From Escherichia coli (GTDB lineage Bacteria > Pseudomonadota > Gammaproteobacteria > Enterobacterales > Enterobacteriaceae): a stretch of 64,000 nucleotides of DNA. Of this stretch, positions 3,001 to 6,000 are shown in pieces. Each line of letters begins with the position of its first letter. Within the stretch, counting starts at the first letter, position 1. The position numbers are program-made. The stretch lies in NCBI RefSeq assembly GCF_965641715.1, contig NZ_OZ282453.1. One strand, 5' to 3'.

Positions 3001-6000
3001 ACAGTGCTCCCTTTTTTTATTCCTGCTATCCTTCGCGGCAGTTTTTCTTATTGAGGTTGCTTTATGACCACTCATGACCGCGTTCGTCTCCAGTTGCAGG
3101 CGCTTGAAGCGTTACTGCGTGAACATCAGCACTGGCGAAACGATGTACCCCAGCCGCATCAATTTAATAGTACCCAACCGTTCTTTATGGACACCATGGA
3201 ACCACTGGAGTGGTTGCAGTGGGTGCTGATCCCGCGAATGCACGATTTGTTAAATAACAACCAGCCGTTACCGGGCGCTTTTGCCGTTGCTCCCTATTAT
3301 GAAATGGCGCTGGCGACGGACCATCCGCAACGCGCGCTTATTCTGGCTGAGTTGGAAAAACTGGATGCTCTTTTTGCGGATGATGCGAGCTAATGCTGGA
3401 AATACTCTATCAGGATGAATGGCTGGTTGCGGTAAATAAACCCTCCGGCTGGCTGGTTCACCGCAGCTGGCTGGATCGCGACGAGAAAGTAGTGGTCATG
3501 CAAACCGTGCGTGACCAGATAGGACAGCATGTTTTTACTGCTCATCGTCTGGACCGACCCACTTCTGGTGTGTTGTTGATGGGATTATCCAGCGAGGCCG
3601 GACGGCTGCTGGCACAACAGTTTGAACAGCACCAAATCCAGAAACGTTACCATGCGATTGTGCGCGGCTGGTTGATGGAAGAAGCGGTGCTGGATTATCC
3701 ACTGGTGGAAGAACTGGACAAAATCGCTGATAAATTTGCCCGCGAAGATAAAGGCCCGCAGCCAGCAGTGACGCATTATCGCGGTCTGGCGACCGTAGAA
3801 ATGCCGGTAGCGACCGGACGTTACCCGACCACGCGCTACGGCCTGGTGGAACTGGAGCCGAAAACCGGACGCAAACATCAGCTTCGCCGACATCTTGCCC
3901 ATTTGCGTCATCCGATTATTGGCGATAGCAAACATGGCGATTTACGCCAGAATCGCAGCGGTGCTGAGCATTTTGGTCTTCAGCGGTTAATGCTGCATGC
4001 CAGTCAGTTGTCATTGACGCATCCTTTTACTGGCGAGCCGCTGACTATTCACGCGGGCCTGGACGACACCTGGATGCAGGCGTTATCACAATTTGGCTGG
4101 CGCGGTCTGCTTCCTGAAAATGAAAGGGTTGAGTTCAGTGCGCCATCAGGTCAGGATGGAGAGATAAGTTCCTAATCCAGGGAGAAAACGGTATGGCGGA
4201 AATTGGTATTTTTGTCGGCACCATGTACGGAAATTCGCTGTTAGTGGCGGAAGAAGCAGAAGCAATTCTGACCGCACAGGGCCACAAAGCAACGGTATTT
4301 GAAGATCCTGAATTAAGCGACTGGCTGCCCTATCAGGATAAGTATGTTCTGGTGGTTACGTCCACGACCGGGCAGGGCGACCTTCCTGATAGCATTGTGC
4401 CGCTCTTTCAGGGAATCAAAGATAGTCTGGGCTTCCAGCCGAATCTGCGTTATGGCGTGATTGCGCTCGGCGACAGCAGTTATGTAAATTTCTGCAATGG
4501 CGGCAAACAGTTCGATGCCTTGTTGCAGGAACAGAGCGCTCAGCGGGTTGGCGAAATGCTGTTGATTGACGCCAGTGAGAACCCGGAACCGGAAACGGAA
4601 TCAAATCCGTGGGTCGAACAGTGGGGCACGCTGTTGTCCTGATATGTTCAGCGAGCGGTAAATGTCGTTTTAGCGGTGCTGAATCGAATCTTTTCAGGCA
4701 AATGCCAGTAAAAACTGCTTCATAGCGCGGATTTTTACTGGCGTTTGCCTGGAGTCAAGCGATCCATTTCATACTCTTCTTTATTTCTTCGTTTTAACCC
4801 TTCCTTTCTTGTTCTTGTTTTCATTTCCGTGAAGTGGATTCCACCGTCCAGGGCTAATGCCAAAATCGGGCCTCATTGAACGCATTAATGTTGTGTTGTT
4901 GCACGGTGAGCCGCTATGGCGCGCTTTTTATACTGCTATTGCCAGATATAAACACGCGCCGTATTCGGCGAACGACCTATAAAAACGGCAAAAAACACCC
5001 TACGTCACCTCTGATTTCCTGGCGATGTCGCAGTCCAGAGTGAGCGTGGCTAACGCGAATTTTCAGGAGTGCAACAATGAGTTCTTTAAGTCAGGCTGCG
5101 AGCCGTGTGGAAAAACGCACGAATGCTCGTTACTGGATAGTGGTGATGTTGTTTATCGTCACATCCTTCAACTACGGCGACCGCGCTACGCTTTCTATTG
5201 CCGGTTCGGAAATGGCCAAAGATATCGGCCTTGATCCCGTGGGAATGGGCTATGTGTTCTCTGCCTTCTCATGGGCTTATGTTATCGGGCAGATCCCTGG
5301 TGGTTGGTTGCTGGATCGTTTTGGTTCAAAACGCGTCTACTTCTGGTCGATCTTTATCTGGTCGATGTTTACCTTGCTGCAAGGCTTCGTCGATATCTTT
5401 AGTGGATTCGGCATTATCGTTGCCCTGTTTACTCTGCGCTTCCTGGTCGGGCTTGCTGAAGCGCCATCTTTCCCCGGCAACAGTCGCATTGTTGCGGCCT
5501 GGTTTCCGGCGCAGGAAAGGGGAACGGCGGTGTCGATTTTTAACTCCGCTCAATACTTCGCAACGGTGATCTTCGCGCCGATTATGGGCTGGCTGACGCA
5601 TGAAGTGGGCTGGTCACACGTCTTCTTCTTTATGGGCGGTCTGGGGATTGTCATCAGCTTTATCTGGTTGAAAGTCATCCACGAGCCAAATCAACATCCG
5701 GGGGTAAATCAGAAAGAGCTGGAGTACATCGCCGCGGGTGGCGCGCTGATCAATATGGATCAGCAAAACACCAAAGTTAAAGTGCCGTTCAGCGTGAAGT
5801 GGGGGCAGATCAAACAGCTGCTCGGATCACGGATGATGATCGGCGTTTATATCGGTCAGTACTGTATCAACGCCCTGACTTACTTCTTCATTACCTGGTT
5901 CCCGGTTTATCTGGTGCAGGCGCGCGGGATGTCGATTCTGAAAGCGGGCTTTGTGGCTTCCGTTCCGGCGGTTTGCGGTTTTATCGGCGGTGTGCTGGGT

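What the first reader, a model, noticed from the sequence alone, without database searches (positions are those of the whole stretch)
4643..5076. Long (434 bp) leader/intergenic region upstream of gudP with a pyrimidine-rich tract and a hairpin
Between yqcA and gudP lies an unusually long non-coding stretch with a CT-rich run (ttcatactcttctttatttcttcgttttaacccttcctttcttgttcttgttttcatttcc) and a hairpin with A/T-rich arms (gccagtaaaaactgcttcatagcgcggatttttactggc, about 4706-4745). This could hold regulator binding sites for the glucarate operon or an unannotated small transcript.
Basis: seen in the sequence. Interest (0 to 1): 0.25.

Follow-up and report, generated by a model that had tools for sequence, protein, structure and literature searches.

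The report
yqcA transcript end plus gudP promoter
This 434-base gap in the E. coli chromosome is ordinary in kind: it holds what looks like the end signal of the upstream yqcA transcript (a very strong hairpin followed by a C-rich, G-poor stretch) and, further down, the activator-dependent promoter and folded leader of the glucarate operon, for which comparison of genomes yields a testable candidate operator.

Summary
The gap is 434 bp. The hairpin is far larger than described: a 27-bp stem at 4692-4754, -40 kcal/mol, z -8.5. The CT tract (4767-4828, 85% pyrimidine) is the most strand-asymmetric stretch of the 64 kb.

The window is E. coli: csrB-yqcC-truC-yqcA-gudPXD. Nothing is annotated in the gap and no Rfam family matches it.

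In 77 Enterobacteriaceae loci the conserved core lies downstream of both flagged features. It comprises TTTTCATTTCCGTGAA (4818-4833), two 14-bp palindrome-like boxes (4850-4863, 4892-4905), an invariant TATACT (4929-4934), and a ~136-nt leader with covarying helices. A matrix built only from the garP/garL-garD region of nine genera picks exactly those two boxes. They lie at -84.5 and -42.5 from the predicted start, as in garP/L, so they are probable CdaR sites.

The perfect long hairpin is confined to Escherichia, which has lost the GC-rich terminator that most other genera carry after yqcA. It has no U tract and is followed by a C>G tract. That is the published anatomy of Rho-dependent 3' ends. 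The tract is also a fixed-length spacer.

There is no evidence of a small RNA. No TSS, 3'-end or binding data were available. Interest is low to moderate.

The parts
4193..4642 (+). yqcA (flavodoxin) coding sequence. Its transcript is the one proposed to end in the interval.
   Evidence: ORF list. RefSeq annotation of matching E. coli genomes and K-12 b2790.
4692..4754 (+). Long hairpin: stem 4692-4718 / 4727-4754, loop 4719-4726, with no U tract after it. Proposed 3'-end-forming and protective stem-loop of the truC-yqcA mRNA.
   Evidence: -40.3 kcal/mol, z -8.5. 35-nt inverted repeat I1. Single copy per genome in 5425 of 5426 E. coli genomes. 18-20 of 20 outer pairs only in the five Escherichia species, 15-17 in three other genera, and 8-12 elsewhere, which equals the slid control. 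One compensatory position: A-T, T-A, C-G.
4697..4706 (.). GGCAAATGCC palindrome in the left arm of the hairpin. A conserved block (GGGCAnnTGCC) at a fixed distance from the downstream elements in about 35 genera. Binder unknown.
   Evidence: Ungapped column consensus. Pattern search. Scores only 0.7 bits with the gar-derived matrix.
4740..4749 (.). GGCGTTTGCC in the right arm of the hairpin. Other genera have GGGC(G/A)TTTTCAC here.
4757..4773 (.). Conserved AAGCGA-N6-TCA(T/C)A element, resembling a CRP site with one good half-site. Weak in E. coli (TCATA).
   Evidence: Present in most long-gap genera at 59/60 or 49/50 bp from TTCCGTGAA. A CRP matrix from 40 Footprint-seq sites gives 2.9 bits in E. 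coli (rank 152 of 63,981) and about 6-8 bits in other genera, against a training minimum of 9.8.
4767..4828 (+). Pyrimidine-rich, C>G tract. Candidate Rho-utilisation region for read-through from yqcA, and a fixed-length spacer of the gudP upstream region.
   Evidence: 85% pyrimidine, top of the 64 kb. Sequence not conserved, but length fixed at 44/45 or 34/35 nt. Median C 0.36 against G 0.16 in 45 distinct sequences.
4818..4833 (.). Conserved block TTTTCATTTCCGTGAA (about -123 to -108). It marks the upstream limit of the minimal conserved gudP regulatory unit. Binder unknown.
   Evidence: Column identity 60-99% in 77 sequences. Exactly 75 bp before TGCACGGTGAG in nearly all loci. Still present where the upstream gene differs, in L010, L016 and L072.
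4850..4863 (.). Candidate CdaR box (AGGGCTAATGCCAA), centre -84.5.
   Evidence: The gar-derived 14-bp matrix gives 7.9 bits, rank 33 of 63,987 positions. Median 8.0 bits at the homologous position in 72 loci. It is one of only two positions with a median above -1.1.
4892..4905 (.). Candidate CdaR box (TGTGTTGTTGCACG), centre -42.5. It abuts the -35 region and sits within the most conserved block, 4887-4911.
   Evidence: 7.8 bits, rank 37. Median 7.8 bits in 72 loci. Block conserved at 92% or more in most genera. Same position as the P box of garP/L.
4906..4934 (+). Core promoter: weak -35-like GTGAGC (4906-4911), 17-bp spacer, -10 TATACT (4929-4934).
   Evidence: TATACT is near-invariant and lies 29/30 bp after TGCACGG in all loci. 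TATACT/TATGCT occurs at the same distance from TTGCAC in garP and cdaR and in gar regions of nine genera.
4941..5076 (+). Predicted gudP leader (start predicted at 4941 +/- 2, not measured). It has P1 (4958-4962/4985-4989), H1 (5005-5013/5036-5043), H2 (5044-5047/5053-5056) and a Shine-Dalgarno AGGAG (5065-5069).
   Evidence: H1: 98.6% of cells paired, 4 of 8 pairs compensatory, 0 of 500 shuffles as good, slid controls 26-46%. P1: covarying arms in most genera. The RBS region is invariant.
5077..6429 (+). gudP, first gene of gudPXD.

Best explanation
The interval is a composite of two ordinary things.

(1) Proximal half, 4818-5076: the CdaR-dependent promoter of gudPXD.
- It contains two 14-bp palindrome-like boxes (family consensus TGTGCATATGCACA) centred at -84.5 and -42.5.
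- The -35 is weak (GTGAGC) and the -10 (TATACT, 4929-4934) is invariant.
- The predicted start is near 4941. The leader is about 136 nt and folds into three hairpins before the ribosome-binding site.
- The activator is inferred to bind both boxes, and possibly the 4818-4833 block. It would recruit RNA polymerase from the -42.5 site, as a class II activator does. The garP/garL promoter has the same geometry.

(2) Distal half, 4643-4817: in Escherichia this serves mainly to end the truC-yqcA transcript.
- The 27-bp hairpin (4692-4754) has no U tract, so it is not a classical intrinsic terminator.
- The C-rich, G-poor tract that starts 13 nt after it is inferred to load Rho.
- Rho would stop read-through before it reaches the gudP control region. 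Exonucleases would then trim the RNA back to the hairpin, which protects the mRNA 3' end.
- The same tract doubles as a spacer of fixed length, 59/60 bp or one helical turn less. It lies between an upstream conserved element (4757-4773) and the promoter core.

Shown here: the anatomy, the statistics, the conservation, the covariation in the leader, and the match to the gar architecture.
Inferred: CdaR binding, the start site, Rho dependence and the 3' end.
For: Promoter:
- Conserved blocks have rigid spacing in 77 loci.
- The arrangement TTGCAC-N24/25-TAT(A/G)CT is shared with garP and cdaR of K-12.
- The gar regions of nine genera carry three 14-bp palindromes at -42.5, -84.5 and -106.5 from the garP/L -10.
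- A matrix built from those gar sites alone singles out 4850 and 4892 in the window (ranks 33 and 37 of about 64,000). At the homologous positions of 72 loci the medians are 8.0 and 7.8 bits, and every other position is -1.1 or lower. The background frequency of 8 bits or more is 5.7e-4.
- PucR-family relatives of CdaR bind 17-24 bp inverted repeats, and one is an octamer. The CdaR site was reported as undetermined (PMC7652997).
- Helices H1 and P1 covary, so 4958-5043 is transcribed on the + strand.

Transcript end:
- Hairpin z -8.5.
- No + strand intrinsic terminator was found in 4500-5200.
- The five Escherichia species lack the GCCCTCCC...GGGAGGGC hairpin that most other genera have within about 10 nt of the yqcA stop. 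They are the ones with a perfect long hairpin and the most extreme tract: pyrimidine 0.84-0.86, G 0.07.
- Dar and Sorek 2018 (PMC6061677) report that Rho-dependent 3' ends sit just after stable stem-loops without U or A tracts, with C-over-G enrichment downstream and rut sites immediately downstream. This element has the same anatomy.
- In the Escherichia hairpins, non-Watson-Crick positions are G.U on the + strand at least as often as on the - strand.
Against: - No experimental TSS, 3'-end, bicyclomycin or CdaR-binding data for this locus could be found.
- The two gudP boxes are only moderate matches (about 8 bits against a training median of 12.5). At that threshold about 0.25 chance hits are expected in 434 bp.
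- Fixed spacer length is a DNA-level constraint that Rho loading does not explain.
- The blocks inside and beside the hairpin (GGCAnnTGCC, A run, T run, GGGCGTTTTCAC) are conserved in genera where no hairpin forms. The hairpin could therefore be a by-product of paired DNA sites.
- The strand bias of G.U pairs rests on very few independent events.
- C. amalonaticus, C. koseri, Intestinirhabdus and Raoultella/Enterobacter sp. have both a GC-rich terminator and a hairpin. The complementary distribution is not clean.
Confidence: 0.55

Rival explanations
1. The hairpin is not an RNA element. It would be a by-product of two DNA sites (GGCAAATGCC at 4697 and GGCGTTTGCC at 4740, each with a GTAAAA/TTTTAC extension). 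Together with the 4757-4773 element and the fixed-length spacer, these sites would form the far-upstream part of one large, helically phased nucleoprotein complex that controls gudP. Such a complex could be an oligomeric CdaR with a bending protein. The CT tract would then be only a spacer.
For: - The blocks and their distances are conserved in about 35 genera, although only 13 of 40 sequences fold significantly.
- The spacing from the 4757-4773 element to TTCCGTGAA is 59/60 or 49/50 bp, exactly one helical turn apart.
- Three GGCNWWTGCM sites lie within 165 bp, against about 8.6 expected in 64 kb.
- In the gar region a real CRP site sits at -166.5 from the garP/L start. The corresponding gudP element lies at -175.5 or -165.5.
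- The PucR-type regulator GabR is an octamer that binds two inverted repeats.
Against: - The gar-derived matrix gives box A only 0.7 bits.
- The CRP matrix gives 2.9 bits in E. coli, below every training site.
- The whole distal part is missing in Enterobacter, the C. freundii group and others, which keep an otherwise identical core. It is therefore dispensable for basic control.
- This reading does not explain the strand-asymmetric C>G composition, or why the stem is perfect only in the lineage that lost the yqcA terminator.
Confidence: 0.2
2. The distal region encodes an unannotated small transcript. One version is a minus-strand RNA started by a CRP-dependent class II promoter (-35 TTGACT 4758-4753, -10 AAAAAT 4736-4731). 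It would run antisense into the yqcA 3' end. In other genera it would end at the GC-rich hairpin after yqcA. In E. coli it would be partly deleted.
For: - The consensus scan finds this one promoter-like site.
- The CRP-like element is centred 41.5 bp upstream of the implied start.
- Blocks such as CTGAATCG(A/T)GTTAGC and TGCCAGT...AACGACC are conserved between the yqcA terminator and the hairpin in many genera.
Against: - The -10 is not conserved. Other genera have TATTGC, CAATAC, CGCTAA or TAAAGG there.
- The CRP score is weak.
- The GC-rich hairpin has its U tail on the + strand, not the - strand.
- No Rfam family matches in eight genera.
- One promoter-like match is what shuffles give (0.6 +/- 0.8).
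- No paper names an RNA here.
Confidence: 0.07
3. The hairpin is an RNase III processing site, or another mRNA-decay or attenuation signal, in a longer truC-yqcA-gudP read-through transcript. It would uncouple yqcA from gudP post-transcriptionally rather than by termination.
For: A near-perfect stem of more than 20 bp is the minimal substrate geometry for RNase III (established knowledge). The stem has 27 paired positions.
Against: - Nothing specific supports cleavage.
- Read-through would have to cross the C-rich tract and the whole promoter region.
- The anatomy fits the Rho-end class equally well or better.
Confidence: 0.08

Closest known systems
Rho-dependent transcript ends with a protective stem-loop (class described by Dar and Sorek, Nucleic Acids Res 2018, PMC6061677)
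   Same: - A very stable stem-loop just after a gene.
- No U tract after the stem and no A tract before it.
- C-over-G enrichment immediately downstream.
   Different: - The stem is much longer (27 bp) than typical terminator-like stems.
- The downstream tract is far more pyrimidine-rich than the 'mild' enrichment described in that paper.
- Rho dependence and the 3' end are not measured here.
The garP/garL (garPLRK) promoter and the garP-garD divergent control region of the same regulon (Monterrubio et al. 2000, cited from reference lists; not readable here)
   Same: - A TATACT -10.
- 14-bp TGTGC-N4-GCACA-type palindromes centred at -42.5 and -84.5.
- Rigid spacing across genera.
- A CRP-type element about 166-176 bp upstream.
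   Different: - gar has a third box at -106.5 and a high-affinity CRP site (Kd 1.9 nM, PMC12871828) that serves the divergent garD.
- gudP has a different conserved block instead (TTTTCATTTCCGTGAA at about -115) and only a weak CRP-like element.
- The gudP boxes are poorer matches to the consensus.
Operators of PucR-family activators (PutR 17-bp, AdeR 24-bp and GabR 21-bp inverted repeats; PMC7652997)
   Same: Palindromic sites occur in pairs upstream of, and next to, the -35 region of an activated catabolic promoter.
   Different: - The repeat is shorter (14 bp).
- The CdaR oligomeric state and its binding are unknown.
Intrinsic (Rho-independent) terminator
   Same: A stem-loop after a gene. 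In C. koseri, Raoultella and others the homologous position has an A-run/stem/T-run form.
   Different: In E. coli there is no U tract after the stem. The T run is inside the stem, paired with the A run.

Membership tests
Rho-dependent 3' end with protective stem-loop | Energetically stable stem-loop at the end of the transcription unit | tested here: met
   -40.3 kcal/mol, z -8.5. It starts 50 nt after the yqcA stop.
Rho-dependent 3' end with protective stem-loop | No U-rich tail after the stem and no A tract before it | tested here: met
   The tail is AGTCAAGCGATC and the upstream sequence is AATCTTTTC. No + strand terminator-like site was found.
Rho-dependent 3' end with protective stem-loop | C-over-G enrichment (rut-like) immediately downstream | tested here: met
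   16 C against 4 G in 62 nt starting 13 nt after the stem, the most extreme window of the 64 kb. C>G holds in nearly all of the 45 homologous spacers.
Rho-dependent 3' end with protective stem-loop | Read-through rises when Rho is inhibited, and a precise 3' end lies at the stem base | not testable with these tools
   No Term-seq or bicyclomycin data for yqcA were found in the supplements held.
Intrinsic terminator | G+C-rich stem followed directly by a run of U | tested here: not met
   No U run follows the stem, and the scan finds none on the + strand.
CdaR-regulon promoter (gar/gud/cdaR) | Promoter architecture shared with the other operons of the regulon | tested here: met
   TTGCAC-N24/25-TAT(A/G)CT occurs in gudP, garP and cdaR. 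The gar-derived matrix hits at -42.5 and -84.5 in 72 loci.
CdaR-regulon promoter (gar/gud/cdaR) | CdaR binds the sites and induction depends on cdaR and glucarate/galactarate/glycerate | not testable with these tools
   Regulation of gud by CdaR comes from the literature (title of Monterrubio et al. 2000; PMC7652997). The binding site was reported as undetermined in 2020.
CdaR-regulon promoter (gar/gud/cdaR) | Mapped transcription start | not tested
   The start at 4941 is predicted from the -10. The primary paper and TSS tables were not available. Covariation in P1 and H1 shows that transcription covers 4958-5043.
CRP binding site | Match to TGTGA-N6-TCACA at the level of known sites | tested here: not met
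   2.9 bits in E. coli and about 6-8 bits in other genera, against 9.8-22.1 for 40 measured sites.
Known RNA family (sRNA or cis-regulatory element) | Match to an Rfam covariance model | tested here: not met
   Only CsrB (2662-3021) matches. Nothing matches in the gap at E<=1, in E. coli or in seven other genera.
Dispersed repeat (REP/BIME, ERIC, MITE) | Several copies per genome | tested here: not met
   A median of 1 place per genome in 5425 E. coli genomes, with sensitive blastn.

The most novel reading that the evidence does not exclude
The whole 240 bp from the hairpin to the -10 would be one helically phased scaffold for an oligomeric CdaR complex. Its parts would be the paired GGCAnnTGCC sites, a bending (CRP-like) site, a spacer whose length changes only by whole helical turns, then the -115, -84.5 and -42.5 sites. 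In Escherichia the upstream pair of sites would also have been turned into the terminator hairpin of the neighbouring gene. One stretch of DNA would then serve as an operator in the duplex and as a transcript-end signal in the RNA.
Probability: 0.12. Interest if true: 0.5.

Novelty: new member of a known kind. Interest (0 to 1): 0.22.

Why it matters
The finding is mostly ordinary.

Its practical value is a concrete, testable operator model for CdaR. The binding site of CdaR was still described as undetermined in 2020, and the protein is used as a glucarate biosensor. The model has these parts:
- a 14-bp palindrome of the TGTGCATATGCACA type at -42.5 and -84.5;
- TATACT as the -10;
- a conserved, structured leader.
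A minimal regulated gudP promoter would be about 4818-5076. That could simplify sensor design.

The distal half gives a clean candidate for a lineage-specific switch from an intrinsic terminator to a Rho-type transcript end. It is also an example of a spacer that is conserved in length and base composition but not in sequence.

Tried and rejected
- **Known RNA families.** None matched in the gap.
- **Dispersed repeat or MITE.** Rejected: the element is single-copy.
- **Strong CRP site at 4757-4773.** Rejected for E. coli by the matrix score.
- **GGCNWWTGCM boxes A and B as the same operator as the gar boxes.** Not supported: 0.7 bits.
- **Long-range pairing of TTGTTGCAC (4896-4904) with GTGCAACAA (5069-5077) over the start codon.**
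  - The upstream copy lies before the predicted start.
  - Genera with GTACAACA at the start codon keep TGCAC upstream, so there is no covariation.
- **Hairpin conserved as an RNA structure across the family.** Rejected: only 13 of 40 sequences fold better than shuffles, and pairing equals the slid controls outside a few genera.
- **Conserved small ORFs (44 aa at 4745-4879; 41 aa at 4857-4982).**
  - The sequence in the tract is not conserved.
  - The ATG inside box C is absent in other genera.
- **Minus-strand promoter.** Its -10 is not conserved.
- **Ancient duplication of the leader start into the distal region.** Significant in 8 of 40 genera but not in E. coli.
- **Literature.**
  - The primary paper on the regulon and several TSS or 3'-end data sets were not held, or their stored supplements lacked these genes.
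  - The CdaR biosensor supplement did not contain the promoter sequence in searchable form.
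Full report
**Identity of the locus.** The window is Escherichia coli chromosome. Bases 4600-5120 are 100% identical to strain O145 RM9872 and are present in 5425 of 5426 complete E. coli genomes, once per genome. The gene order is csrB (2662-3021; Rfam 384 bits), yqcC, truC, yqcA (4193-4642), the 434-bp gap, then gudP (5077-6429) and gudX. In K-12 MG1655 the gap is 2922101-2922534 and carries no annotated feature.

**Observation check.**
- *CT run.* Its coordinates are right. The window 4767-4828 is 85% pyrimidine, with 16 C against 4 G. That makes it the most strand-asymmetric 62-nt window of the 64 kb; the next best is 0.76.
There are 27 paired positions (4692-4718 with 4727-4754). 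The energy is -40.3 kcal/mol against -16.2 +/- 2.8 for shuffles, z -8.5.
- *What follows the hairpin.* There is no U run. The consensus scan finds no intrinsic terminator on the + strand anywhere in 4500-5200.
- *Copy number.* The element is not a dispersed repeat: sensitive blastn finds one copy per genome.
- *Known RNAs.* No Rfam family matches the gap at E<=1, in E. coli or in seven other genera.

**Comparative anatomy.** One genome-collection scan with GudP returned 80 loci from Enterobacteriaceae. In 77 of them yqcA lies upstream of gudP, and the gap is always 279-638 bp. Alignment of the last 275 bp gives sharply conserved blocks:
- TTTTCATTTCCGTGAA (4818-4833);
- CCA (4841-4843);
- GGGCTAATGCCAAAA (4851-4865);
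- AATGTTGTGTTGTTGCACGGTGAGC (4887-4911);
- TTTTTATACT (4925-4934);
- GCCAG (4941-4945);
- parts of the leader and the ribosome-binding region.

Their spacing is rigid:
- TTCCGTGAA to TGCACGGTGAG is 75 bp in essentially all loci.
- GGGCT to the same box is 49 bp.
- That box to TATACT is 29 or 30 bp.

Three loci in which a different gene precedes gudP keep everything from TTCCGTGAA onward and nothing before it. So do genera with short gaps, such as Enterobacter and the C. freundii group. This defines a minimal unit of about 250 bp.

**Motif comparison with the rest of the regulon.**
- In K-12, gudP, garP and cdaR share TTGCAC-N24/25-TAT(A/G)CT. garP and cdaR share the 13-mer CATTTGCACAATG.
- To add depth I fetched garD loci from eight other genera.
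- The gar intergenic region is as rigid as the gudP one. Measured from the -10 of the leftward promoter (TATACT), it has three 14-bp palindromes of the TGTGCATATGCACA type at +29, +71 and +93, and a CRP site at +152. That CRP site was measured by Footprint-seq at Kd 1.9 nM (PMC12871828).
- Relative to the implied garP/L start, the three boxes are centred at -42.5, -84.5 and -106.5.
- I built a symmetric weight matrix from these gar sites alone and scanned the window. The two best positions in the gap are 4850-4863 (7.9 bits, rank 33 of about 64,000) and 4892-4905 (7.8 bits, rank 37).
- At the homologous positions of 72 loci the medians are 8.0 and 7.8 bits. No other position within 165 bp has a median above -1.1. 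The background frequency of 8 bits or more is 5.7e-4.
- With the start predicted 7 nt after TATACT (4941), these boxes are centred at -84.5 and -42.5, the same as in garP/L.
- The variable positions in other genera keep the outer TGTG...CAC(G/A) or TG(G/T)GC...GCC pattern, as expected for a dimer site.
- A 2020 paper on a PucR-family relative states that the CdaR site had not been determined. It also states that relatives bind 17-24 bp inverted repeats and that one relative is an octamer (PMC7652997).
- An earlier comparative study mentions a predicted SdaR site, but the motif is not in the text held (PMC2996990).

I therefore read 4850-4863 and 4892-4905 as the probable CdaR operator of gudPXD. 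This is an inference from sequence only.

**The leader.** From the predicted start to the ATG is about 136 nt (119-164 nt in nearly all other genera; 243 nt in Intestinirhabdus).
- *H1* (5005-5013 with 5036-5043) is paired in 98.6% of cells of a 44-sequence alignment. Four of its eight pairs show compensatory changes. No shuffle out of 500 reaches the observed values, and slid controls give 26-46% pairing.
- *P1* (4958-4962 with 4985-4989) covaries widely: TGCAGT/ACTGCA, CGCAG/CTGCG, GGCAG/CTGCC, CCGCAG/CTGCGG, and GCCGT/ACGGC in Escherichia.
- *H2* (5044-5047 with 5053-5056), just before the Shine-Dalgarno, exists everywhere but in shifted registers.

This shows that 4958-5043 functions as + strand RNA, which fits the predicted start. 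What the structure does is unknown.

**The distal half.** On the + strand, most genera have the following in order:
- a GC-rich hairpin (GCCCTCCC...GGGAGGGC) within about 10 nt of the yqcA stop, often with a U tail;
- conserved blocks (TGCCAGT, AACGACC, CTGAATCG(A/T)GTTAGC);
- GGGCAnnTGCC, an A run, a variable segment and a T run;
- GGGC(G/A)TTTTCAC;
- GTCAAG(C/A)GA-N6-TCACA;
- a spacer.

*The TCACA element.* It looks like a CRP site with one good half. A matrix from 40 measured CRP sites gives it 2.9 bits in E. coli and about 6-8 bits elsewhere, below every training site. Its distance to TTCCGTGAA is nevertheless 59/60 bp or 49/50 bp, one helical turn apart. That points to a DNA-level constraint of unknown nature.

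Its sequence is not conserved beyond CTC(C/T)T. Its length is fixed at 44/45 or 34/35 nt. Its composition is biased throughout the family: median pyrimidine 0.68, C 0.36 against G 0.16.

*The long hairpin.* It is a lineage feature.
- The 20 outer pairs are 18-20 of 20 in the five Escherichia species.
- They are 15-17 of 20 in C. amalonaticus, Intestinirhabdus and one Phytobacter.
- Elsewhere they are 8-12 of 20, the same as slid controls.
- The inner A-run/stem/T-run folds significantly in 13 of 40 sequences.
- One position shows a clean compensatory series: A-T, T-A, C-G.

*Co-occurrence in Escherichia.* The five Escherichia species lack the GC-rich hairpin after yqcA. They also have the most extreme tract: pyrimidine 0.84-0.86, G 0.07.

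**Mechanism proposed for the distal half.** The proposal rests on three features:
- a very stable stem-loop without a U tail or an upstream A tract;
- a C-over-G tract immediately after it;
- a position at the end of a transcription unit that has no intrinsic terminator.

This is the anatomy reported for Rho-dependent transcript ends in E. coli. There the stem-loop protects the RNA from 3' exonucleases, and rut sites lie just downstream (PMC6061677). I therefore propose the following for Escherichia. Read-through from truC-yqcA is stopped by Rho loading on 4767-4828. The RNA is then trimmed back to the hairpin base near 4754-4758. This also shields the gudP control region from upstream transcription. 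The anatomy and the phylogenetic pattern are shown. Rho dependence and the 3' end are inferred. I could find no 3'-end, bicyclomycin or TSS data for these genes in the material held.

**Rivals.**
- *DNA sites, with the hairpin as a by-product.* The conserved blocks and phase-locked spacing in genera without a hairpin argue that the distal half is, at least also, a set of DNA sites. However, it is dispensable in many genera, the gar matrix does not recognise box A (0.7 bits), and DNA sites do not explain the strand-asymmetric composition.
- *Minus-strand, CRP-dependent small transcript.* The one promoter-like hit suggests it, but its -10 is not conserved. One such hit is also what shuffled sequence gives.
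- *RNase III processing.* This is possible on geometry alone.

None of these rivals can be excluded without experiments.

**Verdict.** The region is a new, unannotated instance of known kinds of element. Its modest added value is a testable CdaR operator model and a candidate case of terminator replacement. Interest is low to moderate.

Noticed in passing
window 2662-3021 (+): Full-length CsrB RNA gene (Rfam RF00018, 384 bits). It lies upstream of yqcC-truC-yqcA, as in K-12, and its position is conserved in all genera scanned.
   Followed up: partly
window 4941-5076: The predicted gudP leader is a conserved, structured RNA. P1 and H1 show clear compensatory changes across genera. H2 is a hairpin just before the Shine-Dalgarno and is kept through shifted pairings. 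Its function is unknown, and no Rfam family matches.
   Followed up: partly
window 4896-4904 and 5069-5077: A perfect 9-nt inverted repeat, TTGTTGCAC / GTGCAACAA. One copy is in the candidate CdaR box and the other spans the gudP start codon. Both are conserved, but they do not covary, and the first lies upstream of the predicted start. Probably coincidence.
   Followed up: yes
L011, L012, L015, L036, L035, L020, L005, L040 (distal part of the yqcA-gudP gap): In several genera the distal region holds a short but significant copy of the sequence around the gudP start and leader. An example is CAATGCCAGAGCCAGATTAACG against CAATGCAGTGCCAGATATAACG. Eight of 40 genera reach p<=0.01. This suggests an old partial duplication of the promoter-leader. 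It is not detectable in E. coli.
   Followed up: partly
L084 (Salmonella), L087 (Enterobacter asburiae), L088 (Raoultella), L091 (Cedecea): In these genera garP is absent and garL is the first gene divergent from garD. The promoter boxes and their spacing are nevertheless unchanged.
   Followed up: no
L085 (Klebsiella michiganensis), gar intergenic region, about 380-450 of the 518-bp gap: An insertion resembling an ERIC/IRU-type repeat (…AATCCCCAGGAGCTTACTAAAGTAAGTGACTGAGGTGAGCG…). It sits between the CRP-dependent garD promoter region and the garD start.
   Followed up: no
L016 (Citrobacter braakii), about 450-520 bp upstream of gudP: A tandem array of TTTTTA units in an inserted segment that separates gudP from its usual upstream neighbour.
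   Followed up: no
window 29891-29910: The best CRP-matrix hit of the 64 kb is ACTGTGATTACGATCACATT (17.1 bits). It is the same sequence as the ygcW/yqcE site measured at Kd 1.7 nM in PMC12871828. This served as a positive control for the matrix.
   Followed up: yes
E. coli genomes NZ_CP095856.1 (H20) and NZ_CP027310.1 (H32): In these two genomes the match to the gap breaks off. In H20 it ends near window 4800. In H32 it ends near 4760, with two places in the record. This suggests insertions or rearrangements inside the tract or just after the hairpin.
   Followed up: no
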